Of a stretch of 64,000 nt of DNA, positions 3,157 through 60,290 are shown in pieces. Source of the stretch: Minisyncoccota bacterium (GTDB lineage Bacteria > Patescibacteriota > Minisyncoccia > Phycocordibacterales > PALSA-1337). The number at the start of each line of letters is the position of its first letter. The stretch's first letter is position 1. The stretch lies in assembly GCA_041666915.1 (NCBI GenBank), contig JBAYFZ010000001.1, positions 354,508-418,507 on the forward strand, read 5' to 3'. A model generated the notes under the pieces. That model saw only the letters and a program-made list of their open reading frames with translations, was not told the origin of the DNA and did no database searches. The position numbers and the translations under genes were made by a program.

Positions 3157-3195
3157 GGGGGTATTATAGCAGAATCAAGGTGCGACCTTGATAAA

Positions 3196-10023: not shown

Positions 10024-10160
10024 GTTGTCATTCCCGCTTTTTATGTCATTCCCGCGAAGGCGGGAATCCAGGATAATACCACAATAAATAGCATGTATTT
10101 AAAAACCATTTAACAAACTTTCCATTCGTAATAATCCTGGATTCCCGCCTTCGCGGGAAT
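10024..10160. repeat. MITE/REP-like palindromic element copy 3, inserted between def and fmt
   Basis: Both inverted termini are present, plus an extra partial left terminus (GTCATTCCCGCTTTTTATGTCATTCCCGCGAAGG). The right terminus abuts or overlaps the annotated fmt start. Confidence 0.8.
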
Positions 10161-11076
10161 GACAAAACAAAAAACTATGCCCACCCCCTTCTCCTTCTTC
10201 GGATCCTCACGTTTCTCGGTAATAGTTCTCGAGCAACTTTTTCGTAAAGGATTGATCCCTTCATACATCATAACAACGGTAGACAAACCAATTGGACGAA
10301 AACAAATCATAACAGCCAACGTGGTCAAACAATGGGCCAATGAAAAAAATATTCCTGTTTATGACCCAGCCAAATTGAATCAGGAATTCGTAGATCAATT
10401 GATTAAATTAAATAAAAATACGGACGGTTCAGAAAAATGTCCAGTTTTCCTAGTCGCTTCTTACGGCAAAATAATTCCAAAGGTAATAATAGACTTACCT
10501 TCAAGAAAAACCCTCAACATCCACCCTTCTCTATTACCAAAATATCGTGGACCTTCCCCATTACCTTCGGCAATGTTGGATGACGATAAAAAGACTGGTG
10601 TGACTATCATGAGAATAGATGAGGAGATGGACCACGGCCCAATCGTAGCAAAGAAAGAAGTTGTGGTAACCGAATGGCCTATTTATGAAAAATACGAAGC
10701 AATGATGGCGGACGAAGGAGCAAAATTATTTGCAGAAATATTACCAAAATGGATAGCGGGAGAAATCAAAGAGCAAGAACAGGATCATTCCATTGCTACA
10801 TATACAAAAAAGATTACAAAAGAAGATGGGTTAATTGACCTCTCCGGTGACGCTTATACCAATTTTAGAAAAATCCAAGCCTACCACGAATGGCCAAAAG
10901 CGTATTTCTTCATGAAGCATACCGCCCGTTCGACCGGCTCAGGGCAAGACAAAGAAATCCGTGTAAAAATAACTGAGGCAAGTTTCAGTGATGGTCAATT
11001 GAAAATTCAGAAAGTAATTCCTGAGGGCGCAAAAGAGATGGCATACGAAGACTTCCTTCGTGGTTACAAAAATTGA
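10159..11076 (+). CDS. fmt: methionyl-tRNA formyltransferase
   Basis: Formyltransferase core with the HPSLLPKYRG motif and a C-terminal Fmt domain. The true start may be an internal Met because the first codons lie inside the repeat. Confidence 0.85.
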   Translation: MTKQKTMPTPFSFFGSSRFSVIVLEQLFRKGLIPSYIITTVDKPIGRKQIITANVVKQWANEKNIPVYDPAKLNQEFVDQLIKLNKNTDGSEKCPVFLVASYGKIIPKVIIDLPSRKTLNIHPSLLPKYRGPSPLPSAMLDDDKKTGVTIMRIDEEMDHGPIVAKKEVVVTEWPIYEKYEAMMADEGAKLFAEILPKWIAGEIKEQEQDHSIATYTKKITKEDGLIDLSGDAYTNFRKIQAYHEWPKAYFFMKHTARSTGSGQDKEIRVKITEASFSDGQLKIQKVIPEGAKEMAYEDFLRGYKN

Positions 11077-12068: not shown

Positions 12069-12388
12069 TCCGGAGTAGCTCAGCGGTAGAGCGATCGCCT
12101 GTAGAGTATGCAGCTTTCTGTCGAAAGGCAGATCGAATAACGAGGTGAATTCGGGGAAACCCCAAACGTAATTGTGGGCAATCCCGAGCCGAGCCCGCCA
12201 AATGGTGGGAAGGTGTAGAGACTATCCAATTTTGGAGTAGCTTGAATTATTTATATAATAATTCTTGCGAAGCCCCTCGTCCCTAAACTGTGGCATTGCC
12301 ACGATATGGGAATGATATAGTCCGTACCATTAGTAATAATGGATTAAACGTAAGCGATTGGTCACAGGTTCGAATCCTGTCTCCGGAG
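12069..12388 (+). tRNA. tRNA-Asn(GUU) interrupted in the anticodon loop (between positions 35 and 36) by a group I intron; mature tRNA 72 nt
   Basis: The 5' exon 12069-12102 is TCCGGAGTAGCTCAGCGGTAGAGCGATCGCCTGT. The 3' exon 12351-12388 is TAAGCGATTGGTCACAGGTTCGAATCCTGTCTCCGGAG. Joined, they give a perfect cloverleaf with acceptor TCCGGAG/CTCCGGA, anticodon stem ATCGC/GCGAT, loop CUGUUAA and discriminator G73. Confidence 0.85.
12103..12350 (+). ncRNA. group I self-splicing intron (248 nt) within tRNA-Asn
   Basis: Core elements are recognisable: P-like AATTGTGGGCAA, Q-like AATCCCGAGC, R-like GTAGAGACTATCC, S-like GATATAGTCC. A P9 hairpin CCATTAGTAATAATGG precedes the terminal omega-G at 12350. 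The 5' exon ends in U, which can pair in P1 (CUGU/GCAG). Confidence 0.75.
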
Positions 12389-13933
12389 CAAAGCTGGATG
12401 AAGGGGCGTAATAACGCCCTTTTGTCCTTTCTGGACAAGGGTTTTCTGTGGTTCGAAAAGCTTTTCTGAGTCAATCTTCTCTTGAACACGTTTAGCAATC
12501 ATCTCCACCGATTTCTCCAATGTATAGCTCACTTTTTCGTTGTTAATGACTAAGTTCGAAAAAATCTTCTTCAGAATCATTCGACGTTCCATTGGATTTC
12601 TTTTTTCATAAATCTCTCGGGACCTTCGAGCTATGTCAATAATATCAATGTATCGTTCGAAATATTTAACCTCATCATTCTTGAGTCTCGCAATTTGTGA
12701 TTGGATTCCTTCCTGTTCAGACATTATCTCCGCTTGTTTTGACTCCCAGCGGTCCCTAGTAATCTTCTCGTCTAAGTGATCATCATAAAGTATGTCCAAT
12801 CGCTTCTGTAGGCTGTTATAGCGTTCCTGAAGAGCTTTTAACATATTCTCCTTGTATTCAGATTCGCCTTTATGATCATCACGGATCTTTTGATATAGTT
12901 GCTCAGCTTCGACAGGTGTAATTGCCTCAAATATTCTAAATACAGACAAGATCGAGTTCTCAATTTCTTCTTCTCGAGTCGAATACCTCTGTGAGCAAGT
13001 CTTGTAGTGCTTACATGAGTAATAAATATGACCTTTCTGGACCTCCCCGTAGATTGTACTGCCACATTCTCCACAATGAATCATCTTAGAGAATATATGC
13101 TGACGCCTCTTATAATGTGGCGCACCGTCCCGGACCAAAGCTGTTTGCACTGAGTCAAACAGTTCCTTAGATATTAACGGTTCCTGTTTTCCACCTCTAT
13201 ACAAGACTCCCTTCCAAATCATATCTCCATAGAAAAAAGGATCTTTTAGTATCTCATGTAAACAGGACTTACCAAGCTGACAACCATTTCTTGCTCGTAA
13301 TCCCTCTGAGTATAGCTTGTCACTTAGGGCCATCAATGAATAATTGCCTGTAGCATAATATTCAAAAGCCTTTTTCATGAACGGTCCCCGGACCTCATCT
13401 ATGACGTGTATTTTGTGACCCTTGTCGCCAATAGTCTTATATCCGAGTGGTGGCGTACATGGGAGCCAACCCTGAGCGATTTTCTCCTTCTGACCTTTCT
13501 TCACCTCTTCTGAGAGATTGTTGGTGTAGAAGCGTGCAATAGCTATCTTCATATCCCAGACCAGATTCTCGTGAGCACGGGTATTCTTGTTAACTACTGA
13601 ATTCTCCTTCACAAAGTGCACTTCACGAGCTTCATCTTCCTGAATCCAGTCATTAACTATCGAAGCATCTTTCAAATTACGTGTTAGACGATCTATTTTC
13701 TCACAGAGGATAATATTCACATCATTCTTAACTGTATATTCCAACATCTCGTTAAACACAAGGCGTATTTGCTTGCCACTGGCTGATTCACTGATCCTAA
13801 AAACTTTTGATATTGTAAGGTTCCTTTTACCTGCATATTCCTTCAAGAGCTTTTCTTGTGCATCAAGAGAGTAACCGGTTTCCTCCTGTTCTCGAGATGA
13901 TACACGTGCATATATGACGCAGTCGGTTTTCAT
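12362..13933 (-). CDS. large serine recombinase (resolvase/invertase catalytic domain + recombinase domain + zinc ribbon)
   Basis: N-terminal VIYARVSSREQ catalytic-serine motif and DRLTRN; central recombinase domain; Cys-rich segment CGECGSTIYG...YYSCKHYKTC. The 3' end of the ORF overlaps the 3' exon of tRNA-Asn. Confidence 0.85.
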   Translation of the reverse strand: MKTDCVIYARVSSREQEETGYSLDAQEKLLKEYAGKRNLTISKVFRISESASGKQIRLVFNEMLEYTVKNDVNIILCEKIDRLTRNLKDASIVNDWIQEDEAREVHFVKENSVVNKNTRAHENLVWDMKIAIARFYTNNLSEEVKKGQKEKIAQGWLPCTPPLGYKTIGDKGHKIHVIDEVRGPFMKKAFEYYATGNYSLMALSDKLYSEGLRARNGCQLGKSCLHEILKDPFFYGDMIWKGVLYRGGKQEPLISKELFDSVQTALVRDGAPHYKRRQHIFSKMIHCGECGSTIYGEVQKGHIYYSCKHYKTCSQRYSTREEEIENSILSVFRIFEAITPVEAEQLYQKIRDDHKGESEYKENMLKALQERYNSLQKRLDILYDDHLDEKITRDRWESKQAEIMSEQEGIQSQIARLKNDEVKYFERYIDIIDIARRSREIYEKRNPMERRMILKKIFSNLVINNEKVSYTLEKSVEMIAKRVQEKIDSEKLFEPQKTLVQKGQKGVITPLHPALLRRQDSNL

Positions 13934-14521: not shown

Positions 14522-15021
14522 GATCCCGGGGTTTTGTTTATCCTCATAATCAAACTCGGCGAGTAGATTAAATAACGACGCCAATCCGATAACGTCATTT
14601 TCTTGATTATTTAATTTTGAATTATTTTCGACCATTTGTGTATGATGGTGTGAACGATTTACTCACCATTGACGACCATCATACTAAAACAGCCATTTAC
14701 GTTTAAAATAAAAATTAAATATGGCTTAACTAAGCCAATTATACAAAATAATCCAATACACACTTATTCTTACTCCTATAATATTTTATATTCTTTTCCG
14801 TTGATAAGTAGAACAGGTTTTGATACTATAATCACATATAAGAATACTGACGCCAGAAAGGCCCAGCTGGCGCGCGCCTTCATTAGAAGGAAGAGCGAAT
14901 GGAGGAACTGCCGCCCTCCCAGATCTATCTAAAAAACTTCCTTCAATAAAGGAAGTTTTTTAGTTTAAAACCATTACTTTCTGTTCGACCAATTGGGTAC
15001 AAACTTTAATACAACTAGCAG

Positions 15022-15094
15022 TACCCTCGGAAGGACTCGAACCTTCAACCTTGCCGATAGAAGCGACTTGCTCTGTCCATTGAGCTACGAAGGC
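15022..15094 (-). tRNA. tRNA-Arg(UCU)
   Basis: The reverse complement GCCTTCGTAGCTCAATGGACAGAGCAAGTCGCTTCTATCGGCAAGGTTGAAGGTTCGAGTCCTTCCGAGGGTA folds as a 73-nt cloverleaf with anticodon loop CUUCUAU and T-arm GAAGG-TTCGAGT-CCTTC. Confidence 0.8.
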
Positions 15095-23552: not shown

Positions 23553-24144
23553 TTTAAATCATTTTACAAACACAAAAAGCCCACCACGGGTAGAGGCCGA
23601 AGCCCCTCATATCAGTTTCCCGATATGGCAGATTAAGGCGACCCCATGATGGGTTCTTTGTCCTTAATCTGACTAACTTTTCACCATGCCAGAAATCACT
23701 TATTTCTGGTTTAGGCTACTTATACATATTCAGTTGTATGTTTAGGATACCACTCTATTACGTCCATGCCAATATTCAGCTCTTTAACAATCGTGTAATG
23801 CATGTCTCCCTTCACCACATAATAGTGTATAATAAAGCTATGAAATACGCTTATCTATCCATAATAATTCTTTTAATAATCAGTGGTTTTTATTGGTTTC
23901 AGTTGCGACCAAGCCAAATTAAAAAACATTGTTTTTATACCAGTGCAACATTAAAAGAAAATTTATCGCCTCATGCCGATTTAACTTCTCCAGATAGCTT
24001 TAGTCTCGCCAGCGTAGAAGCACAATCCAATTACCATTCTTGTTTAACCTCGAATGGACTTTAAGGTTGAACTCGAAGAAAAAATGTGATGTAAGTCACT
24101 ATCCACAGTTTTTTTATTTCTATTTGGTTGATATAATGTTGCTC

Positions 24145-24705
24145 AACATTCAATAGTGAATGTTGAAATTGACAACACATGCTCGCTTGCCTGAACAACA
24201 AGCACACAAGAGCGACCGGTTATCCCCGAGATTCCTTAGACGGGTACTCTAGCAGGGACAGTGATGTCCCATGCTAGCGTTCACTAGTAATGGGAACATC
24301 GGATTTATTTTCGAAGTTCTTGTTAAGAGTGCCGGTCTAAGGAATTTTTGCGTATTGTTTCGCCTCATCTGTACATCACGAATTGATGTGCGGATTCTGG
24401 CGGAATTAATACCGCAGAAGCAGAGTGTCGATAGCTCTTATCTGGCAGAAACGCCAGGAAGTTTGATTTTGCAATACCATGCAGAAAACAAACAAAAGTC
24501 AGATCTGCTTTCCGTCAAAAGACGGTCTCAAGTTGATCTGCAACGCCGTTGATAGGTACGGTGACGGACAGTTGTGGGAAACCATCTCTGGACGTTGGAT
24601 TCCTATCGATATAGAAAATGCACCGGCTTTTACCAGTGCATTTTCAAGAAAATCCTGACGTGGTTTTTCTTACACAACCGCTCCCGCAAGGGAGCTTTTG
24701 TGTTT
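24145..24705 (+). ncRNA. candidate structured ncRNA / non-coding transcription unit of unknown class
   Basis: Extended -10 promoter TGATATAAT at 24129-24137. The region has elevated GC and many hairpins (e.g. CAACATTC-AATAG-GAATGTTG; GAAAATGCACCGG...CCAGTGCATTTTC). Terminator GCTCCCGCAAGGGAGCTTTTGTGTTT at 24680-24705. The only ORF (24271-24552) has no RBS and low-complexity content. Confidence 0.4.
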
Positions 24706-24847
24706 GAGTTATTATATTATAGACTACGAACGGCTTGTCAAGGAAGCATAAAACCTGTGTATAGCAATTTTATGATTAACAAATAATAAAAAGTCAAACT
24801 TAAAACTGCCCTATTGGCTTTAAATATGTACAAAAACGCGTCTCAAA

Positions 24848-25387
24848 ATGTCACAATGGACTAAAGATTTTATTGGCATTATACTATTGGTTATGATCAA
24901 TGAAATACAAACGGAAAAAGATTTCTCTGAACAACTTATTAAAGGAAAAATTACTGAGCTTGTCTTTGAACGAATGTTTCGTACGGTTGGACACTTTACT
25001 GTGATACCTTTCGGTTATGAAAATACTTTGCCCGAAATAGTCCAGTATCAACACTTGGCAAAATATCCTCAAGTCTTTGATACAATCAAAACAGCTCCCG
25101 ACTTTGCAATTGTATCTCATGACAGAAGTGAGGTTTTTCTAGTTGAAGTCAAGTACCGAACAGGTCATACCGATAAAGCTATACTAGAGCTAGCAGGAGA
25201 AATTCAAAAGAAATGGAAACTTGTTAGATTGTTTCTTGCCACACCTTCTGGTTTCTATTTTGATTCCTGTAGTAACATCATTAAAAATGAAGGTAAAATA
25301 TCCACTCTTGGACCACAATGGGTAAATGATGAGGTACAAAAGGAATACCTAGAACTATTAAATCAATTTATCATTAGACCTAACTAA
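24848..25387 (+). CDS. PD-(D/E)xK nuclease-fold protein
   Basis: PDFAIVSHDRSEVFLVEVKYR contains D...EVK spaced as in restriction-endonuclease-like folds. Confidence 0.5.
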   Translation: MSQWTKDFIGIILLVMINEIQTEKDFSEQLIKGKITELVFERMFRTVGHFTVIPFGYENTLPEIVQYQHLAKYPQVFDTIKTAPDFAIVSHDRSEVFLVEVKYRTGHTDKAILELAGEIQKKWKLVRLFLATPSGFYFDSCSNIIKNEGKISTLGPQWVNDEVQKEYLELLNQFIIRPN

Positions 25388-25437: not shown

Positions 25438-27318
25438 CTAATCGTTCTTACTCTTAGATGTAACCCAACTTTCTTCAAGATCAACGGTACCACTATTTGG
25501 TCGTCTCGATTTCTCAAGAAGCTCAATATCGACTTTAACCGGTATATCCGAAGCTAATCCAGCAACAAAACAACTTCCCACAGAAAGAATTGGAATGCTT
25601 TGAAATGACAATTTATCAAGATAAGCGACAGCTTTTTCTACTGCGCTTATATCATTATCATTTATAAGTCTATGAATAAAATAGTTATGTAGCTGAGAAA
25701 TTATTGTGGCTGATATATCATAAGGCCTTTGGCTTGCAATAGTTAGAAAGACACCAAATTTTCTTCCCTCCTTTATAATTTCTTCAAAAGTCTCTAGACG
25801 ATAATCCTTCCATGTCTCACTTTCTCGCTGAGACATTGTGGAGAGAATATTATGAGCCTCATCTATAATTATATGTAGCGATTTTTTGTCAGACTCCTTT
25901 TTGTTTTCGTACAACTGTTTCGCAATTATTAGCGGAACAATCTTCTTCATCTCAATATTTACATCTCTTAAAGAAATGACGGATAGATTCTTTGATTCGG
26001 GGCTATCTTTAATATCAATCAGTTTCTCCAACATATCAAACTTTCTGAACATTCTGCCCACTAATGGTCCAATATGTTCTTGGTTTGAATATCCCTTTAC
26101 GATTTCATGAAAATAATTAAAAACGATTTTCAATTTCAGCTTACTAAATTCGTCAGCCTTAAAGACCAGTGCATCCACAGATGTTTTAAGTCGAGTGTCG
26201 TATATAGGGTTTTTATTGTTGTAATTATTGCCATCATTTGATGCGTCCCAGTAATACTCCTTTGTAAGGGAGTGATAGTGTAGTTTATTTTCAATATCTT
26301 TTTTAAGTGCAATTACATCATCCTTCTTCTCATCTGTAACAAGATTTATCAGGTCTCTAAAAAGCTCGATGATTACCCCTTCTCTAAGGTTTCCATCCTT
26401 CTTATCAATAACACCAGTACACAGATCTTCGATACTTGTAATAGCTCGAGTATTAAAAGTCGTATTATCATCAAGATAATCATTACGTATAACTCTATCG
26501 AGAAAGGGCTTTTGTGTTTTTTCTGTTGCCTCCAGTAAAACAGACAGGATTTCTGTCTTGTGAATACTTTCTCTAGGAAGCGGGTATTTTTTCTTACTGC
26601 CTTTTTTACCAGTTGATAGCTCATAGACCACTTTGTCTTTCGTAATCATTTCATCACCAGTATATTCACCATTGAAATCAATTATCACAAAATCTGATTT
26701 GGTTTTGAAATCACCTTGATCTGAGAATGTTTTAAAAAGCTCAGTGTATATTTTCGCAAGTGTATTTGATTTACCGCTTCCGGTGTTGCCGAAAATACCA
26801 ATATGGCTGGCAAACAATTTATTAACACCTAGCTTTATCTTTTGTGACGGCTCTTCTGTTAGACTGCCGACCGCAATAGTTTTGTCACCCTTTTTGTAAA
26901 ACTGGTGAAGTACATTAAATTCATCTCTATTTAGCAAATAGCACTCATTATCGATCAAGGGCATTTCTTTTATACCCTGCTTTACACAATTACCTTCAAA
27001 ATGACCAAAGAGAGACAATTGCAAAACCCTATTTATCCTAGTCTCTTCTTTGTTGTATTCTTTATTAAAAAACTTTTCTTCAGAGGTAAATTCGCCCTCA
27101 ACTTTTCCAATAATACTCACGAAACCCTTTACTATCTTTACATAGCTACCTACAGACACATTTTTTACAGTTTTTCCTTCGAATAAAATATGCGAATGAT
27201 TTTTATTTTTATTTAGTTTTACCCTAACAATTCTACCGTCAACTGAGAGAACGCGGCCAATTATAAAAATCGACTCTTGCATCAATTCTTGCTCAATTGT
27301 TTTACTCTTTGTCTCCAT
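25438..27318 (-). CDS. herA: HerA-like (DUF87) ATPase, partner of SIR2 in the SIR2-HerA antiphage system
   Basis: N-terminal HAS-barrel-like segment, Walker A GNTGSGKSN, Walker B HIIIDEAHN, and the GRKFGVFLTIASQRP motif typical of HerA/FtsK-like ATPases. Confidence 0.8.
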   Translation of the reverse strand: METKSKTIEQELMQESIFIIGRVLSVDGRIVRVKLNKNKNHSHILFEGKTVKNVSVGSYVKIVKGFVSIIGKVEGEFTSEEKFFNKEYNKEETRINRVLQLSLFGHFEGNCVKQGIKEMPLIDNECYLLNRDEFNVLHQFYKKGDKTIAVGSLTEEPSQKIKLGVNKLFASHIGIFGNTGSGKSNTLAKIYTELFKTFSDQGDFKTKSDFVIIDFNGEYTGDEMITKDKVVYELSTGKKGSKKKYPLPRESIHKTEILSVLLEATEKTQKPFLDRVIRNDYLDDNTTFNTRAITSIEDLCTGVIDKKDGNLREGVIIELFRDLINLVTDEKKDDVIALKKDIENKLHYHSLTKEYYWDASNDGNNYNNKNPIYDTRLKTSVDALVFKADEFSKLKLKIVFNYFHEIVKGYSNQEHIGPLVGRMFRKFDMLEKLIDIKDSPESKNLSVISLRDVNIEMKKIVPLIIAKQLYENKKESDKKSLHIIIDEAHNILSTMSQRESETWKDYRLETFEEIIKEGRKFGVFLTIASQRPYDISATIISQLHNYFIHRLINDNDISAVEKAVAYLDKLSFQSIPILSVGSCFVAGLASDIPVKVDIELLEKSRRPNSGTVDLEESWVTSKSKND

Positions 27319-28321
27319 GATTCATGCTATTTAAGACTTCACTGAGGACCGACTGATTGATTTTTTCTAGGTTAAATCTACTTGCTGGCTCATCATCTGA
27401 GGGTTCAATGATTTCAATATTTGAATACCTCAATTTTCCAAGTTGCATTTTTGTCTTCATACTTGAATCCGTATCCTTTCCGTGGCAAAACACATAAATT
27501 TTTAGTGTAGGATTCGATTCTGCTGCTCTTATCGTTATTTCTCGAATATGTTCATCTTCCATAGAGAATCCTAGAACAAAAAGAACGGTATTTTCTTTTT
27601 CCAGTTCACCTGAATACATTCTGAGCAATTCGTAGTAAGTTACATCGATTACCGTTTCTTCAAGTTTTTTCCTTTCTGGATTTACTATTGCTAATCTTTC
27701 ATAACCAGCCTCAAAAGCTCGTTGTCCCTTTTTTAACAAAGATTTATCGAAATGTTCTAGCTTTGAAAAATGAATTTTATTTTCAACCTTTTCCCATGTC
27801 AAAGATCCGTGGACTTTCATAAGATTAAACAAAGGTATTTCTGAAACATTCTCATAGTGCAAACTTCTTTTTTGTATTGATTTTTTAAAATTACTCAGGC
27901 TAAAAGTAGCATTTAATCGACCATTGAAACCATCGTTATATTCAAGACTACTATCTTCCAAAACAGTTTCCATCAGTATATCTATGTTTGTAGTAAATAT
28001 GTTAACTTGCTTACTGAGAATTGTATTCTTGCGCTTCAAAAGTATACGTGCAAGCATTTCAAAAAAATCCTTATACGCCTTACATGTTGTATCAAAATCG
28101 CCTTTTTTAGCTATTGATTTACTAATAATTTCAAGATTAGGAATTATTACTCTCTCAAAATACTCCTTCTTTATCTTTACCCGCTCAGATTTCTTTTTTT
28201 CGCTAGATAAACGAGTCTCAATATCACCAAGTATTGGCAAAAACGGTGTTGAAAGACCAGCCCCAACTAGGACATTTATGTGCGAGCTCTGTATGGCCTC
28301 TTTTATTTCTTGAGGTTTCAT
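27302..28321 (-). CDS. SIR2-family (DHS-like NAD-binding) protein, SIR2-HerA antiphage system
   Basis: VLVGAGLS (GAGxS), IFTTNIDIL (TTNYD-like) and MKVHGS (HGS) motifs; overlaps the herA start by 17 nt. Confidence 0.8.
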   Translation of the reverse strand: MKPQEIKEAIQSSHINVLVGAGLSTPFLPILGDIETRLSSEKKKSERVKIKKEYFERVIIPNLEIISKSIAKKGDFDTTCKAYKDFFEMLARILLKRKNTILSKQVNIFTTNIDILMETVLEDSSLEYNDGFNGRLNATFSLSNFKKSIQKRSLHYENVSEIPLFNLMKVHGSLTWEKVENKIHFSKLEHFDKSLLKKGQRAFEAGYERLAIVNPERKKLEETVIDVTYYELLRMYSGELEKENTVLFVLGFSMEDEHIREITIRAAESNPTLKIYVFCHGKDTDSSMKTKMQLGKLRYSNIEIIEPSDDEPASRFNLEKINQSVLSEVLNSMNHGDKE

Positions 28322-29635: not shown

Positions 29636-29743
29636 TTTAAACAAAATAATTCCTTGTCCACTTTTTGCCAGTTAACAATTCTGAACTCGTCCAACAGTTC
29701 TATTCATACTTGACAAACTCTACGGATATGATAAGATACCATA

Positions 29744-30096
29744 GTCGACGATAAGTGAGCTGGTTGTCGATACGGCCGAAAGGCAATGTAAATTAGCTCT
29801 CGGGGTTTGTATCCGTCAACGGGAGATACCCCTAAACGAACAGTTGATTTGGTACATCAAAAAAGTCGGCACTTGAGCATAAGCTCAGCCCATCATCGGC
29901 GCAAGCTCGTTAGTTATCTGATCCTGCGAGTAGCACCGGCAGAGGGCACTTTGCCGACACAAAAGAAAGAGTGGCACGATGTGCATGTCTAGCTTGCACG
30001 CCACAGGTTTGGTGGTACTTAGTCTCCACCCGATGAAGTACGCGACTTCATGAGTCAATTCGCCCGGAACCACCACTTTGGTTCCGGGCTTTTTTA
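29744..30096 (+). ncRNA. candidate structured ncRNA of unknown class
   Basis: Promoter TTGACA-16-TAAGAT at 29710-29737. A ~350-nt GC-rich ORF-free region ends in the terminator GCCCGGAACCACCACTTTGGTTCCGGGCTTTTTT. The small ORFs inside (29807-29992 and 29885-30076) look spurious. Confidence 0.4.
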
Positions 30097-30100
30097 TTTC

Positions 30101-30190
30101 CTCATGTCCTTCATAAACAACGACTGATTGTAAATTCCCTACATGTATTCCCTATCTGAGAATATGGTTATAATAATCTCATGTTCGGGG
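30101..30190. repeat. ~90-bp repeat R copy 1 (CTCATxxCTTTCATAAACAA...GTATTCCCTATCTGAGAATRTGGTTATRATAATCTCA)
   Basis: ~85% identical to copies at 32141-32230 and 34367-34455; each follows a rho-independent terminator. Confidence 0.75.
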
Positions 30191-30201
30191 ATGGCATACA
30201 A

Positions 30202-30897
30202 TTATTTTTCGTTATCGTGCATTACTTTCAATAAAAAGATGGTATCAGTCTTTAACTTTGCACGAGCAGAATCCTTCTGTGAATCAGTGATCAATTCACC
30301 AAGCCCATCTAAAATATGTTTATTATCCATTGACTCCAACATGGCAATACATTTCTCTAATGCTTCCTTATATGGAACTCCCGATCTTTCTTCCACAATC
30401 TTGCGGTTAATAGGCCAGTTATTTTTAGCAAAATACTGAACATCAAAAATATCACGACTTGTCTTACCGATTCGCTCAAACATTGCCATCAACTTATGTG
30501 CAAACATGTCTTCTTGGACCATTACGAGCATTGAGATGCCGAGATATGTTTTCATTTCATACTTTGAGCCAAGTTGGCGACGATTCACCTCAACCTTAAT
30601 TTTCTGAGCATTAGTATCATAAGAGATAACATTCTTTAAATTGAATCTCTGCATGTATGAATCAGTAATTTTGCCGTAATTACTTACAATCTTGTTTATT
30701 TTCTCAAAAACGTCCTTTTCTTTTGTCTCATCCAACAAATCAAGATCCAAATCTACAGAGTTTCTGGGCAAATCATAAAACATCATAGCTGCGGTACCAC
30801 CTTTGAATCCCAAATAAGGTGCAATAGAGGTATCAGAATAGATATCTTTTAAGATCTGTAACAAGATATTCTTATGTTTTGAGTAATCTAATGTCAT
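30202..30897 (-). CDS. abiEii: AbiEii/AbiGii-family nucleotidyltransferase toxin (type IV TA / abortive infection)
   Basis: LGFKGGTAAMMFYDLPRNSVDLDLDL matches the DUF1814/AbiEii signature. Confidence 0.75.
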   Translation of the reverse strand: MTLDYSKHKNILLQILKDIYSDTSIAPYLGFKGGTAAMMFYDLPRNSVDLDLDLLDETKEKDVFEKINKIVSNYGKITDSYMQRFNLKNVISYDTNAQKIKVEVNRRQLGSKYEMKTYLGISMLVMVQEDMFAHKLMAMFERIGKTSRDIFDVQYFAKNNWPINRKIVEERSGVPYKEALEKCIAMLESMDNKHILDGLGELITDSQKDSARAKLKTDTIFLLKVMHDNEK

Positions 30898-31478
30898 ATA
30901 ATTTTTTGATATTCTTTTACCTTCTTTTCTAAACGCTTGTTGTTATAAATTGGTAATATTTCCATCACCTTATTCCAATCCAATGAACGCAAATTATCAA
31001 AGTGATAATCTTTGCTTACATATACACGGTCTAAAAAGGCACGTTCACGTGATGCGGTGGCAATACCACTTGTATGTTCTATTCCCATTGAATTACTCAA
31101 AACGTAATCTTTCATCCGAACGAAAGTAATTTTTTGATCACCAATTGTAATTTCTCGATTCATGTATGATGCAACGAAAATATTTCCGTAATATTGGAAA
31201 TTTACCCCTTCACGAGTCAAAATGGTTTCAAAGCTAATATATGATGGGGTGTAGATACGAGTTGCTAATTCGAAACGATTGTAATTTTTATCTTTAGCAT
31301 AAAATCCTCTGTGAACTCTGATCAACTTTTCCGCTTTTACATAATAGTTCAAACGGACCCTAGCCGCTGATTCATTTTGTTCCCCCCACATCAAAACCAC
31401 ATCCTTTGTTGAAAAGATGGTCTGGGGTGATCTTAATAAGATCTCCAAAAATTCGCCTTTTGTGGGTTTATTATCCAT
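30894..31478 (-). CDS. abiEi: AbiEi-family antitoxin / transcriptional regulator
   Basis: KLIRVHRGFYA motif typical of AbiEi N-terminal domains; stop overlaps the abiEii start by 4 nt. Confidence 0.65.
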   Translation of the reverse strand: MDNKPTKGEFLEILLRSPQTIFSTKDVVLMWGEQNESAARVRLNYYVKAEKLIRVHRGFYAKDKNYNRFELATRIYTPSYISFETILTREGVNFQYYGNIFVASYMNREITIGDQKITFVRMKDYVLSNSMGIEHTSGIATASRERAFLDRVYVSKDYHFDNLRSLDWNKVMEILPIYNNKRLEKKVKEYQKII

Positions 31479-32085: not shown

Positions 32086-32140
32086 GCGTAACCCGCCCGA
32101 ACAGAGAAACCCTCCGTTCACGGCGGGTTTTCTTTTTATA

Positions 32141-32230
32141 TTCTCATCACTTTCATAAACAACAACCGATTGTGCATCCCCTACATGTATTCCCTATCTG
32201 AGAATGTGGTTATGATAATCTCATGTTCAG
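32141..32230. repeat. ~90-bp repeat R copy 2
   Basis: See copy 1. It is preceded by the hairpin CCCGCCCGAACAGAGAAACCCTCCGTTCACGGCGGG+T-tract, itself reused at 38338. Confidence 0.75.
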
Positions 32231-32248
32231 GAAGCATAAGATTGTAAT

Positions 32249-34311: not shown

Positions 34312-34366
34312 ATCCCCCGCCCGAACACGAAGCCCATCGCTTCAGTTCGCGGCGGGTTTCTTTTTT

Positions 34367-34455
34367 CTTCTCATCGCTTTCATAAACAATAACTGATTGT
34401 ACATCCTCTATATGTATTCCCTGTCTGAGAATGTGGTTATGATAATCTCAGGTTC
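34367..34455. repeat. ~90-bp repeat R copy 3
   Basis: See copy 1. Confidence 0.75.
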
Positions 34456-34630
34456 GGAAAGTGTTGCACTTCAGAGTGGAATTTTAGGAGCCAAGTTGAC
34501 AACATTGATTAAAAGATGTAATTTAAGTCTAAATTGCTCTAACAAAATTAAAACGAAGGTAAATTATGAAATCAGGAAGAAACGTCGCACTTGCGAACAA
34601 TGATAGATTTTTTCTCTTCATCGTATTCAA

Positions 34631-54770: not shown

Positions 54771-54886
54771 AATTACTAATTTTTAATTTCTTGCGTTGTC
54801 ATTCCCGCGAAGGCGGGAATCCAGGATATTACCAAAAAATTCTGTTAGTTGCCTTCATGGATTCCCGCCTTCGCGGGAATGACACA
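54771..54886. repeat. MITE/REP-like palindromic element copy 4, between the hydrogenase small and large subunit genes
   Basis: Both inverted termini plus the shared flank AATTACTAATTTTTAATTTCTTGCGTT. Confidence 0.8.
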
Positions 54887-54890
54887 ACTA

Positions 54891-57379: not shown

Positions 57380-57463
57380 ATAGTCAATATTTACAACGTA
57401 GATTATCTATAACTCTATTTTCAAAACAAATAATGAAAAAACATAATATGCTATAATTTATAG

Positions 57464-59221
57464 GTGAAGAAATCCCACGACAGTGTTTTTACTATTGGCA
57501 TCGGCGGAGCGGCTGGTGACGGTATCCATGAATCAGGCATCACACTAGGTGCTATCTTGGCCGAACTTGGTTACGAATCATATTTATCATACACTTACCC
57601 TTCACTTATCCGTGGAGGGCACAATTTTGCCCGTCTTTCATTCAGTAAGGAAAAAATATACTCTGACCACGAAGCTTTGGATGTTCTCATCGCTCTCAAC
57701 GAAGAAAGCATCGTGCTTCATCGCAAAGAAATGGCAGACAATTCGGTTGTTTTGGCTGATTCTTTTGAAAAAGATGATTTGGACATACTCAAAGACAATG
57801 CCGTAGTTATACCGATGGACATTACAGTCAAAGAGATGAATGTTTCTCCTATTACCAGAAACTCAATGGCTTTGGGAGCGCTTTGTTACCTACTAGACTT
57901 GGATTTCAAGCTCATGGAAAAAGTCTTAGGTGATGTCTTCAAAAACAAAAAACCAGAAATAAACATCAAACTTGCTGATATAGGTTACGAATTACTCAAA
58001 AGCAAAAATTTCCGACATTCCAAAAAGATTCACCCTAGTGAAGGTAAAAAAGAATTCATAGATGGTAATAGTGCCCTAGCAAAAGGCCTTCTAACAGCTG
58101 GTTTAGATTTCTACATTGGTTACCCAATGACACCAGCTACAAGTATCTTGCAATATTTAGCTACACACCAACACGACAATATTGGACACAATCAAAAGAT
58201 GCGTGTCATTCAACCAGAGAGTGAGCTCTCGGTTATCAATATGGCACTAGGCATGTCTTACGCCGGCAAACGCGTAGCAGTTGGTTCTGCTACTGGAGGT
58301 TTCGCCTTGATGCAAGAAGCTTTTAGTTTCGCTGGTATAGCCGAATTACCTTTGGTAGTAGCTGTCTCCCAAAGACAAGGACCTGCCACAGGACTTCCTA
58401 CTTATTCTAGTCAAACAGATTTGCGATTTGCCATACATGCTGGACATGGAGAATTCCCGAGAATAGTCATCGCCCCCGGAGATCCAGAAGAATCCTTCTA
58501 CCTTGGTGCACAAGCCTTGAATCTGGCTTGGGAATACCAACTACCAGTCATAGTCCTTATGGATAAAATCATTTCCGAACATTCTGCTACGAGTCTTTTG
58601 AAAGCTGAGAATATTAAAATAGAAAAAGGAAACGTCGCAAAAAATACAGATGAAAAATATGGTAGATATGAAATAACAAAAGACGGTATATCTCCTATGG
58701 CTTTTCCTGGCACAGCCAATACTACAGTAAAAGTTACTAGCTATGAACATGACCATGCAGGTATCACCGTAGATGAACCAGAGTTAGCCGAAAAAATGTT
58801 AGATAAAAGGTTTGCTAAATCAGAAACCTTAAAAAAATCTTTAAATCACCACGAGACCGTCAAAGTCTACGGCGATCACTCCAGTGACAATATAGTTGTT
58901 TTCTGGGGTTCAACCAAAGGTCCCGCTTTGGAGTCAGCCAGATATTTGAAAAAACCAGTCAAGTTTGTACAAATTGTTTGGTTAGAACCTTTTGATGTTA
59001 AAAAAGTAAAACAAGAATTATCTGGAGCCAAAAAGATTATTGACGTTGAATGTAATCATGATGGTCAATTATCTGCTTTAATCCGCGAAAAAACTGGCAT
59101 AGAAGTCACAGACAAGATTCTGAAATACGATTCAAGACCTTTTGAACCAGTTGAGTTGGCAGAAAAGATCAATTCATTATGTCATTCCCGCGAAGGCGGG
59201 AATCCAGGATGTAACCAATAA
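57464..59221 (+). CDS. 2-oxoacid:ferredoxin oxidoreductase alpha subunit (gamma-alpha fusion type)
   Basis: N-terminal gamma-like TIGIGGAAGDGI domain then an alpha domain. The last ~15 codons (LCHSREGGNPGCNQ) are supplied by MITE copy 5. Confidence 0.8.
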   Translation: MKKSHDSVFTIGIGGAAGDGIHESGITLGAILAELGYESYLSYTYPSLIRGGHNFARLSFSKEKIYSDHEALDVLIALNEESIVLHRKEMADNSVVLADSFEKDDLDILKDNAVVIPMDITVKEMNVSPITRNSMALGALCYLLDLDFKLMEKVLGDVFKNKKPEINIKLADIGYELLKSKNFRHSKKIHPSEGKKEFIDGNSALAKGLLTAGLDFYIGYPMTPATSILQYLATHQHDNIGHNQKMRVIQPESELSVINMALGMSYAGKRVAVGSATGGFALMQEAFSFAGIAELPLVVAVSQRQGPATGLPTYSSQTDLRFAIHAGHGEFPRIVIAPGDPEESFYLGAQALNLAWEYQLPVIVLMDKIISEHSATSLLKAENIKIEKGNVAKNTDEKYGRYEITKDGISPMAFPGTANTTVKVTSYEHDHAGITVDEPELAEKMLDKRFAKSETLKKSLNHHETVKVYGDHSSDNIVVFWGSTKGPALESARYLKKPVKFVQIVWLEPFDVKKVKQELSGAKKIIDVECNHDGQLSALIREKTGIEVTDKILKYDSRPFEPVELAEKINSLCHSREGGNPGCNQ

Positions 59222-59272
59222 AATTTATCGCCAGTATTCATGGATTCCCGCCTTCGCGGGAATGACACAAAA
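59176..59272. repeat. MITE/REP-like palindromic element copy 5
   Basis: Intact termini; the core CCAGGATGTAACCAATAAAATTTATCGCCAGTATTCATGGATTCC is nearly identical to copy 6. Confidence 0.85.
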
Positions 59273-59286
59273 AACAAAACAACATT

Positions 59287-60109: not shown

Positions 60110-60290
60110 AATGACTGAATTCCTTAAGATATATAAGTCTTCATCAGAAATTAGTCTTTGTGTCATTCCCGCGAAGGCGGGAATCCAGGATGTAACCAAT
60201 AAAATTTGTCGCCAGTATTCATGGATTCCCGCCTTCGCGGGAATGACAACACAAGAAATTAAAAATTAGTAATTAGAAATTCTCCTAACT
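60110..60290. repeat. MITE/REP-like palindromic element copy 6 with extended AT-rich flanks
   Basis: Intact termini at 60160-60250. The flanks (AATTTTTAATTCCTAATTTC... / ...AAATTAAAAATTAGTAATTAGAAATT) mirror the flanks of copies 2 and 4. Confidence 0.8.

What the first reader, a model, noticed from the sequence alone, without database searches (positions are those of the whole stretch)
24129..24705. Third candidate non-coding unit (~560 nt) between the unknown-gene array and the PD-(D/E)xK gene
An extended -10 promoter (TGATATAAT), ~500 bp of higher-GC sequence with many perfect hairpins, and a terminator at 24680-24705 are present. The only ORF (93 codons) lacks an RBS. Its location inside an accessory or defence island is reminiscent of large ornate phage- or island-associated ncRNAs, but no class can be assigned from sequence alone.
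Basis: inference. Interest (0 to 1): 0.5.

Follow-up and report, generated by a model that had tools for sequence, protein, structure and literature searches.

The report
Orphan 560-nt structured RNA candidate
A roughly 560-base stretch with its own promoter and terminator, at the edge of a mobile island in an uncultivated Paceibacterota (CPR) bacterium, folds far more stably than chance and does not look protein-coding, so it is probably a large non-coding RNA of no described family, but no relative was found to prove it.

Summary
TGATATAAT (24129-24137) is a promoter type that mostly sits just before gene starts in this window. A canonical terminator lies at 24680-24705. The ~560 nt between are 44.9% G+C (window 37.6%).

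As RNA the + strand folds to -236 kcal/mol, z = -12.3 against dinucleotide shuffles. The ensemble is well defined. The + strand is favoured over the - strand only through G-U pairs.

Coding is unlikely. All six frames score like spurious ORFs. The 93-codon ORF has no true homologue among 1.84 billion representative proteins.

No Rfam 15 family matches at E <= 10, so neither ROOL, GOLLD, OLE nor HEARO. A known LOOT RNA lies next door at 23592-23717 (-).

The unit is the last cargo of about 12.4 kb inserted after tRNA-Asn by serine-recombinase elements, next to a small nuclease gene and SIR2-HerA.

I found no homologue: only 100% identical copies in other assemblies, and nothing in related elements. 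Conservation, covariation and expression are therefore untested.

Verdict: a credible orphan large-ncRNA candidate of unknown function. Moderate interest.

The parts
24129..24137 (+). Extended -10 promoter TGATATAAT. Predicted transcription start is near 24144.
   Evidence: Most other TGNTATAAT copies in the window sit 7-48 nt before gene starts. The same TGATATAAT precedes the nuclease gene in L122.
24143..24166 (+). Perfect 10-bp palindrome or hairpin (TCAACATTCA-ATAG-TGAATGTTGA) at the predicted 5' end. It could be a 5' stabilising stem-loop or a repressor operator.
   Evidence: It is unique in the window (0.02 expected by chance).
24181..24228 (+). Weakly structured linker (D1).
   Evidence: z = -1.2; highest positional entropy, 0.87.
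24230..24346 (+). Domain D2: a closing stem of about 29 bp that carries a branched tip.
   Evidence: MFE is -60.5 kcal/mol (z = -9.3) on the + strand and -45.7 on the - strand.
24347..24418 (+). Domain D3: a hairpin of about 30 bp with G-U pairs and small bulges.
   Evidence: MFE is -34.3 kcal/mol (z = -7.0) on + and -20.0 (z = -3.2) on -.
24425..24612 (+). Domain D4: a multibranch domain closed by a 10-bp stem. It has five hairpins, one with a GAAA tetraloop at 24578-24581.
   Evidence: MFE is -70.8 kcal/mol (z = -5.4) on + and -57.1 on -.
24614..24671 (+). Two consecutive 3' hairpins, T1 (24614-24645) and T2 (24646-24671). T1 is more stable on the - strand.
24672..24705 (+). Intrinsic terminator T3: stem 24680-24695 with a GCAA loop, then a U-tract.
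24714..24741 (-). Possible convergent promoter (TTGACA-16-TAATAT). It would give a short RNA antisense to the 3' hairpins. Unverified.
   Evidence: 10 of 12 consensus matches. Promoter-like sites are not enriched in this region (7 found, 5.1 expected).
23592..23717 (-). Neighbouring LOOT RNA (RF03000), the leader of the divergent island operon. It is context, not part of the unit.
   Evidence: 78.6 bits against a gathering score of 46.4.
24893..25387 (+). Downstream 164-aa gene for a putative PD-(D/E)xK-type nuclease, with its own -10 box (TATACT) 7 nt before the ATG. It is context, not part of the unit.
   Evidence: Homologues are 155-165 aa. In L122 the gene lies about 48 nt after tRNA-Asn.

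Best explanation
Positions ~24144-24705 (+) encode a stand-alone, highly structured non-coding RNA of about 560 nt.

- It is transcribed from the extended -10 promoter at 24129-24137.
- It begins with a 5' stem-loop.
- It folds into three stable domains (D2, D3, D4).
- It ends at an intrinsic terminator at 24680-24705.

It is cargo at the far end (away from the recombinase, next to the predicted attR junction) of a composite element. That element uses serine recombinases and is inserted after the tRNA-Asn gene of a Paceibacterota (CPR) genome.

My best guess at function is that it acts in trans as a long-lived structural RNA serving the mobile element. It could be a scaffold or ribonucleoprotein component, or a decoy in conflicts between element, host and phage. 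That would be analogous to GOLLD and ROOL RNAs, whose functions are also unknown.

Shown: the signals, the fold statistics, the lack of coding signal and the location.
Inferred: transcription, action in trans, and any role.
For: - Promoter and terminator bracket the unit in the same orientation.
- The + strand RNA fold has an MFE of -236 kcal/mol and z = -12.3.
- The ensemble is well defined: entropy 0.38 against 0.98 for shuffles, and P(MFE pairs) 0.89.
- Strand bias matches the promoter. D2, D3 and D4 are each 14-15 kcal/mol more stable on the + strand.
- The bias disappears when G-U pairs are forbidden (-193.8 against -188.5 kcal/mol) or when DNA parameters are used (z = -9.0 on both strands).
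- G+C is elevated, in the longest ORF-free gap of the window.
- All six frames score -8 to -11 bits per 100 nt. Real genes score +6.9 +/- 2.7 and spurious ORFs -5.9 +/- 4.5.
- There is no Pfam hit.
- Among 1.84 billion representative proteins the only hits are the ORF itself and two repeat-protein artefacts.
- The downstream nuclease family occurs widely without this sequence upstream and has its own promoter, which argues against a dedicated leader.
Against: - I found no diverged homologue, so there is no conservation or covariation evidence.
- The closest related element, L260, lacks it.
- There are no expression data.
- Much of the stability comes from long, near-perfect helices. Such helices are also typical of DNA palindromes, and DNA parameters still give z = -9 on both strands.
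- The function is argued from context and analogy only.
Confidence: 0.55

Rival explanations
1. It is a cis-acting leader or attenuator. Transcription from 24129 runs through the structured RNA, and the three 3' hairpins (T1-T3) gate read-through into the nuclease gene at 24893. This would keep a potentially toxic nuclease under RNA-structure control.
For: The unit is on the same strand as the gene and directly upstream of it. Three hairpins sit in series before the gene.
Against: - The nuclease gene has its own -10 box 7 nt before the ATG.
- In five homologous contexts (L122, L126, L128, L130 and the P0008 contig) the gene has at most about 260 nt of uncalled sequence upstream. That gap is 155 nt in L122 and holds the tRNA-Asn gene, and it is under 100 nt in L126, L128 and L130.
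- The terminator is canonical, and 187 nt of AT-rich spacer follow it.
- 560 nt is far larger than known leaders.
Confidence: 0.12
2. It is a DNA-level or single-stranded-DNA element of the mobile island. It could be a replication, transfer or packaging origin, or an accessory recombination site, whose hairpins act in DNA. The promoter and terminator would then be incidental or serve priming.
For: - It lies at the very end of the inserted DNA.
- With DNA parameters both strands still give z = -9.0.
- Several hairpins are perfect palindromes.
- Most proteins of the element have no known function.
Against: - The strand asymmetry depends on G-U pairs, as expected for RNA.
- The unit is G+C-rich, not AT-rich, and has no iterons or direct repeats.
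- No Rep or relaxase was recognised.
- Related elements (L260, and the 8-kb loci L196 and L140) lack it. This counts against an essential cis site, though the 8-kb loci do not reach the far ends of their elements.
Confidence: 0.12
3. It is non-functional, hairpin-rich filler, for example an accretion of decayed palindromic insertions between two islands, with fortuitous promoter-like and terminator-like sequences.
For: The host genome carries MITE-like palindromes. No homologue was found anywhere.
Against: - There is no similarity to the host palindromes.
- The hairpins are organised into closed multibranch domains and favour one strand.
- A promoter of the organism's own type and a canonical terminator sit exactly at the edges.
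Confidence: 0.12
4. It is protein-coding, either the 93-aa ORF at 24271-24552 or the 59-aa ORF at 24479-24658.
For: JGI annotated the 93-aa ORF as a hypothetical protein. Absence of an RBS is no objection in this genome. The 59-aa ORF scores -1.1, which is not clearly spurious.
Against: - The 93-aa ORF scores -5.9 bits per 100 nt, equal to the mean of spurious ORFs.
- There is no Pfam hit.
- There is no true homologue among 1.84 billion representatives.
- The start codons are buried in stable helices.
- NCBI locus tags WCS89_02100 and WCS89_02105 flank the region. If PGAP stepped its tags by 5 as usual, it annotated nothing between them. This is an inference.
Confidence: 0.04

Closest known systems
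ROOL RNA (Rumen-Originating, Ornate, Large; average 581 nt; PMC5737381, PMC12286853)
   Same: Similar size. Stand-alone transcription unit. Lies in mobile or prophage-like DNA close to tRNA genes. Multi-domain fold. Function unknown.
   Different: The Rfam ROOL model does not match even at E <= 10. No pseudoknots or conserved nucleotides can be shown. The host is a CPR bacterium. The helices are longer and more perfect than in typical ornate RNAs. Oligomerisation is untested.
[quoted passage not shown]
   Same: Large structured RNA often found in prophages and next to tRNAs (PMC5737381). Stand-alone.
   Different: No covariance-model match. About 560 nt, against roughly 800 nt for GOLLD as I recall. 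No evidence of the conserved core.
LOOT RNA (RF03000), the immediate neighbour
   Same: Same island and same divergent control region. Both are non-coding elements of CPR serine-recombinase elements.
   Different: LOOT is about 125 nt, conserved in at least 120 Patescibacteria loci, and sits as a leader before operons. The 560-nt unit has no sequence or model similarity to it and is absent from those loci.
Type III toxin-antitoxin RNA antitoxins (ToxI and CptI type)
   Same: The gene order is promoter, RNA, terminator, then a downstream nuclease-like gene.
   Different: There are no tandem repeats. The downstream protein is a PD-(D/E)xK-like family that is found without the RNA elsewhere, and by its motifs does not resemble ToxN/AbiQ (my own knowledge of that family).
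ColE1 RNA II and RNA I (structured pre-primer of about 550 nt with a short antisense RNA)
   Same: Size and heavy secondary structure. A possible short convergent antisense transcript from 24741-24714. Location on a mobile element.
   Different: The putative antisense RNA would cover the 3' end, not the 5' end. The unit ends at a real terminator. No origin features are present. This comparison is purely speculative.

Membership tests
ROOL / GOLLD / OLE / HEARO / raiA (Rfam large bacterial ncRNAs) | Match to the family covariance model (sequence plus structure) | tested here: not met
   cmscan against all 4227 Rfam 15 families. Nothing at gathering score. None of these families at E <= 10 on 1.6 kb or on 588 nt with the laxest filters. 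That these families are in Rfam 15 is from my own knowledge.
ROOL / GOLLD kind (not membership) | More than 500 nt, stand-alone, in mobile or prophage DNA near tRNA genes | tested here: met
   About 560 nt between promoter and terminator. It lies at the end of DNA inserted after tRNA-Asn. tRNA-Arg is at 15021-15094.
ROOL / GOLLD kind | Covariation-supported multistem junctions and pseudoknots, with conserved nucleotides | not testable with these tools
   No diverged homologue was found. Only 100% identical copies exist (L001, L265, L266).
ROOL / GOLLD kind | Homo-oligomeric RNA-only assembly (cryo-EM, PMC12286853) | not testable with these tools
   This needs an experiment.
Type III TA antitoxin RNA | Tandem direct repeats of about 34-45 nt upstream of a ToxN/AbiQ-type toxin gene | tested here: not met
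   TRF finds no repeats at score >= 30. No direct-repeat family of that kind. No PADLOC hit for the downstream protein.
CRISPR / TIGR-type guide arrays | Array of repeats interspaced with spacers, with an adjacent effector gene | tested here: not met
   No repeats. No Cas or Tas-like domain among the neighbours.
Group I / group II introns and other ribozymes | Covariance-model match | tested here: not met
   Searches find none in this region. By contrast the same tool finds a group I intron at 12078-12343.
Protein-coding gene | Codon-position-specific composition and homologues | tested here: not met
   (scores -5.9 and -1.1; all six frames negative). (no homologues).

The most novel reading that the evidence does not exclude
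This is the founding example of a new class of large, highly structured non-coding RNA carried as cargo by tRNA-integrating serine-recombinase elements of CPR/Patescibacteria. It would be a functional counterpart of GOLLD and ROOL in ultra-small, host-dependent bacteria, possibly acting as an RNA scaffold or as a decoy in defence or counter-defence.
Probability: 0.3. Interest if true: 0.65.

Novelty: new member of a known kind. Interest (0 to 1): 0.45.

Why it matters
Large structured bacterial RNAs are rare, and several (GOLLD, ROOL, OLE, raiA) still have no known function. A new one from a CPR mobile island would show that such RNAs exist in the most reduced bacteria. It would also add an unusually stable fold, well suited to structural study. 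As it stands this is a single orphan sequence, so it is a lead for transcriptomics and deeper homology searches, not a result.

Tried and rejected
Homologue searches, all negative or uninformative:
- blastn (distant mode) against phages and plasmids found nothing.
- A loose LOOT pattern in viral contigs gave 120 chance loci with no LOOT and no RNA.
- Exact 18- to 24-mers of the RNA in viral contigs gave 0, 0 and 1 chance hit. The chance hit was L264, at 64% G+C.
- An 18-mer in metagenome contigs gave 9 chance hits.
- Protein anchors in viral contigs (the 350-aa protein, Rec452, Rec523) found no relatives.
- Nuclease-family homologues number 254, but none of the contexts I fetched has the RNA.
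- The adjacent 164-aa protein is an orphan.
- Homologues of the 350-aa protein led to the related element L260, whose homology stops at window 23753 and which lacks the RNA.
- 120 LOOT loci from GTDB Patescibacteria genomes gave no nhmmer, blastn or covariance-model hit.
- A few ORF-free regions of about 550 nt near LOOT (L140, L170, L228/L245) are unrelated and much less structured.
- Exact-protein look-ups of ORFs inside the region returned only 100% identical contigs.

Other points considered and dropped:
- The high HMMER score of the 93-aa ORF to P0166 is an artefact. A weak match is multiplied by 36 near-identical repeats, and BLASTP gives E = 3-11 per repeat.
- No second copy of the full 24-nt palindrome (allowing 3 mismatches), and no excess of its half-site (allowing 1 mismatch), elsewhere in the window.
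- No tRNA-derived direct repeat marks the right edge of the island.
- My first sliding-window script timed out.

Full report
**Observation**

The region reads as described.
- TGATATAAT lies at 24129-24137.
- A terminator stem GCTCCC/GGGAGC lies at 24680-24695 and is followed by TTTTGTGTTT.
- The sequence between them is 44.9% G+C. The window is 37.6% and its ORF-free gaps average 36%.
- The unit sits in the longest ORF-free gap of the window, 23553-24847.

TGNTATAAT occurs nine times in the window, which is not a significant excess (4.9 expected). Its placement is more telling. Five copies sit 7-48 nt upstream of a same-strand ORF start, and a sixth fits if the listed GTG start is right. Two of them (3163-3171 and 57449-57457) lie 7 nt before the start codon. 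The orthologous nuclease gene in L122 is preceded by the same TGATATAAT. The motif therefore behaves as a real promoter in this organism.

**Structure**

Folded as RNA, 24140-24705 (+) has an MFE of -236 kcal/mol. Dinucleotide shuffles give -153.7 +/- 6.7, so z = -12.3. The - strand gives -206 kcal/mol and z = -10.2.

The ensemble is unusually well defined.

| Measure | This RNA | Shuffles |
|---|---|---|
| Mean positional entropy | 0.38 | 0.98 |
| Mean probability of MFE pairs | 0.89 | 0.66 |

Five same-length coding controls fold to only -106 to -153 kcal/mol.

The predicted architecture is:
- a perfect 10-bp hairpin at the predicted 5' end (24143-24166);
- a weak linker;
- D2 (24230-24346), a stem of about 29 bp with a branched tip;
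- D3 (24347-24418), a hairpin of about 30 bp;
- D4 (24425-24612), a five-hairpin multibranch domain;
- three 3' hairpins, the last being the terminator.

**Which strand, and RNA or DNA**

D2, D3 and D4 are each 14-15 kcal/mol more stable on the + strand.

| Domain | + strand (kcal/mol) | - strand (kcal/mol) |
|---|---|---|
| D2 | -60.5 | -45.7 |
| D3 | -34.3 | -20.0 |
| D4 | -70.8 | -57.1 |

- If G-U pairs are forbidden the two strands become equal, at -193.8 and -188.5 kcal/mol.
- With DNA parameters both strands give z = -9.0.

The asymmetry is therefore the kind expected of selection on a + strand RNA, and it agrees with the promoter and terminator orientation. It is supporting evidence, not proof.

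**Coding test**

I trained a 3-periodic Markov model on 47 long genes of the window.

| Sequence | Score (bits per 100 nt) |
|---|---|
| Real genes | +6.9 +/- 2.7 |
| Spurious overlapping ORFs | -5.9 +/- 4.5 |
| 93-codon ORF (24271-24552) | -5.9 |
| 59-codon ORF (24479-24658) | -1.1 |
| All six frames of the unit | -8 to -11 |

- Pfam finds nothing.
- A full HMMER scan of 1.84 billion representative proteins returns only the ORF itself and two long repeat proteins.
- The score to the first of these, P0166, is a weak chance match multiplied by 36 repeats. BLASTP gives E = 3-11 per repeat for it, and E = 0.9 or worse for the second, P0168.
Only 4 of 47 genes have an SD-like motif, and several look leaderless.
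- The conclusion that the region is non-coding still stands, on the other evidence above.

**Known families**

- At Rfam 15 gathering scores the window yields only a tRNA and a LOOT RNA at 23592-23717 (-), with 78.6 bits.
- E-value mode up to 10 on 1.6 kb and on 588 nt gives only noise in the unit. No ROOL, GOLLD, OLE, HEARO, raiA, intron or ribozyme model appears.
- There are no tandem or dispersed repeats.
- This excludes type III antitoxin, CRISPR and TIGR-like arrays.

**Context**

The window comes from a 450-kb contig of a Candidatus Paceibacterota MAG.
- In a related genome (L122) the 163-aa nuclease-like gene lies about 48 nt after an intact tRNA-Asn.
- In the window, about 12.4 kb (12391 to about 24850) is inserted between them.
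- The inserted DNA carries these features:
  - Rec523, whose 3' end overlaps the tRNA;
  - a 160-aa gene;
  - tRNA-Arg;
  - Rec452 and ParB;
  - eight small genes headed by LOOT;
  - the 560-nt unit.
- Homologues of Rec523 and the 160-aa protein sit next to tRNA-Asn and divergent from LOOT in L196 and L140.
- L260 shares Rec452 and ParB (77% nt), the 350-aa protein and LOOT, but its homology stops at window 23753.
- So the unit is variable cargo at the recombinase-distal end, not a core part of these elements.
- To the right lie the nuclease-like gene, SIR2-HerA (25438-28321) and AbiE (30202-31478).

**Homologue search**

This was the main effort and it failed.
- Phage and plasmid blastn, viral and metagenome word scans, protein-anchored searches, 120 LOOT loci from GTDB genomes, and single-sequence covariance models of D2+D3 and D4 all gave nothing.
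- Exact look-ups of ORFs inside the region found contigs in JGI 3300037810 and Logan SRR6484324 that are 100% identical to the window.
- There is therefore no variation with which to test conservation or covariation.
- My DNA searches of the big collections could only find near-identical sequences. Absence of homologues is weakly established.

**Interpretation**

The most likely reading is a stand-alone, highly structured ncRNA of about 560 nt encoded as cargo of a CPR integrative element.
- I put about 0.75 on "a structured + strand transcript".
- I put 0.55 on the full statement, which includes action in trans.

Its function is unknown. By size, autonomy and mobile-element/tRNA context it resembles GOLLD and ROOL (PMC5737381, PMC12286853), but it is not a member of those families. 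Long helices of about 30 bp could also make it an RNase III substrate or a precursor of smaller RNAs, which I could not test.

The rivals are:
- a leader for the nuclease gene;
- a DNA or ssDNA site of the element;
- inert palindromic filler;
- a small protein gene.

**Novelty and score**

It is a new candidate within a known kind, namely large structured RNAs of mobile DNA. It is unassignable to any described family and is so far a singleton. Interest is 0.45: a strong single-sequence signal in an interesting lineage, but no conservation, no expression data and no mechanism.

Noticed in passing
window 23592-23717 (-); also L126:3412-3558, L128:1911-2049, L260:4541-4683, and L131-L250: A LOOT RNA (RF03000, 78.6 bits) heads the island's 8-gene operon. 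Related LOOT copies sit as leaders before operons and divergent from serine-recombinase modules in other CPR mobile elements. LOOT may be a leader or regulator typical of these tRNA-integrating elements.
   Followed up: partly
window 12069-12390 (+), insertion about 12103-12350: The tRNA-Asn(GUU) gene is split in its anticodon loop by an insertion of about 248 nt. ARAGORN and Rfam at gathering score both miss it. Rfam Intron_gpI scores 45.9 bits (E = 1e-10), just under the cut-off of 50. The intact orthologue is at L122:5872-5952, and L140 has the same split gene. This matches the recently described group I introns in Patescibacteria tRNA-Asn and tRNA-Asp genes (PMC13011429).
   Followed up: partly
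window 29711-30098 (+): A second promoter-to-terminator non-coding unit lies between the terminase-like gene cluster and AbiE. It has TTGACA-17-TAAGAT, about 350 nt of up to 52% G+C, and a terminator at 30062-30098. Its RNA fold has z = -4.3. It has no Rfam match and no homologue in the fetched loci.
   Followed up: partly
window about 14803-14965 (+): A small candidate sRNA unit lies divergent from the 160-aa/Rec523 module, where LOOT sits in the related elements L196 and L140. It has TTGATA-17-TACTATAAT, about 100 nt of GC-rich sequence, and a terminator at about 14930-14965. It has no Rfam hit at gathering score.
   Followed up: no
window 30092-30192, 32134-32234, 34361-34461 (+): Three direct copies of a 101-nt sequence, 85-88% identical, are spaced about 2.0-2.2 kb apart. 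Each directly follows a terminator-like hairpin and bounds a small gene cassette (AbiE, a TPR protein and others). They may be cassette boundaries or repeated promoter regions in the defence island.
   Followed up: partly
window about 375-500, 1695-1810, 10030-10170, 54795-54890, 59180-59275, 60160-60255: MITE-like palindromic elements of about 95-140 nt have the termini TGTCATTCCCGCGAAGGCGGGAATCCAGGAT. They occur in intergenic DNA outside the islands only. They produce the other extreme folding-energy peaks of the window.
   Followed up: partly
whole window: Only 4 of 47 long genes have a Shine-Dalgarno-like motif. Several have a -10 box 7 nt before the start codon, for example at 3163-3171, 57449-57457 and 23828-23833. 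This suggests frequent leaderless or SD-independent initiation, so absence of an RBS is not evidence against coding here.
   Followed up: partly
window 24893-25387 (+): The 'PD-(D/E)xK gene' more likely starts at 24893 (164 aa) than at 24848. Its family has 254 hits of 155-165 aa, a PDF...VEVK motif, and TnsA-like Pfam hits in two members. It is common in CPR mobile elements but has no PADLOC, Pfam or PDB sequence match for this member.
   Followed up: partly
window 23738-24064 (+): The small ORF (108 or 74 aa) between LOOT and the unit scores -3.5 and -13.6 in the coding model and was called as a gene only by one pipeline (Logan). It is probably not a gene, which would make the whole of 23553-24892 non-coding.
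   Followed up: partly
L228 / L245, about 1.0-1.5 kb upstream of LOOT: An ORF-free stretch of about 540 nt folds much better on one strand (-171 against -135 kcal/mol). It may be another unannotated structured RNA in a LOOT-bearing Patescibacteria locus. It is unrelated in sequence to the unit studied here.
   Followed up: no
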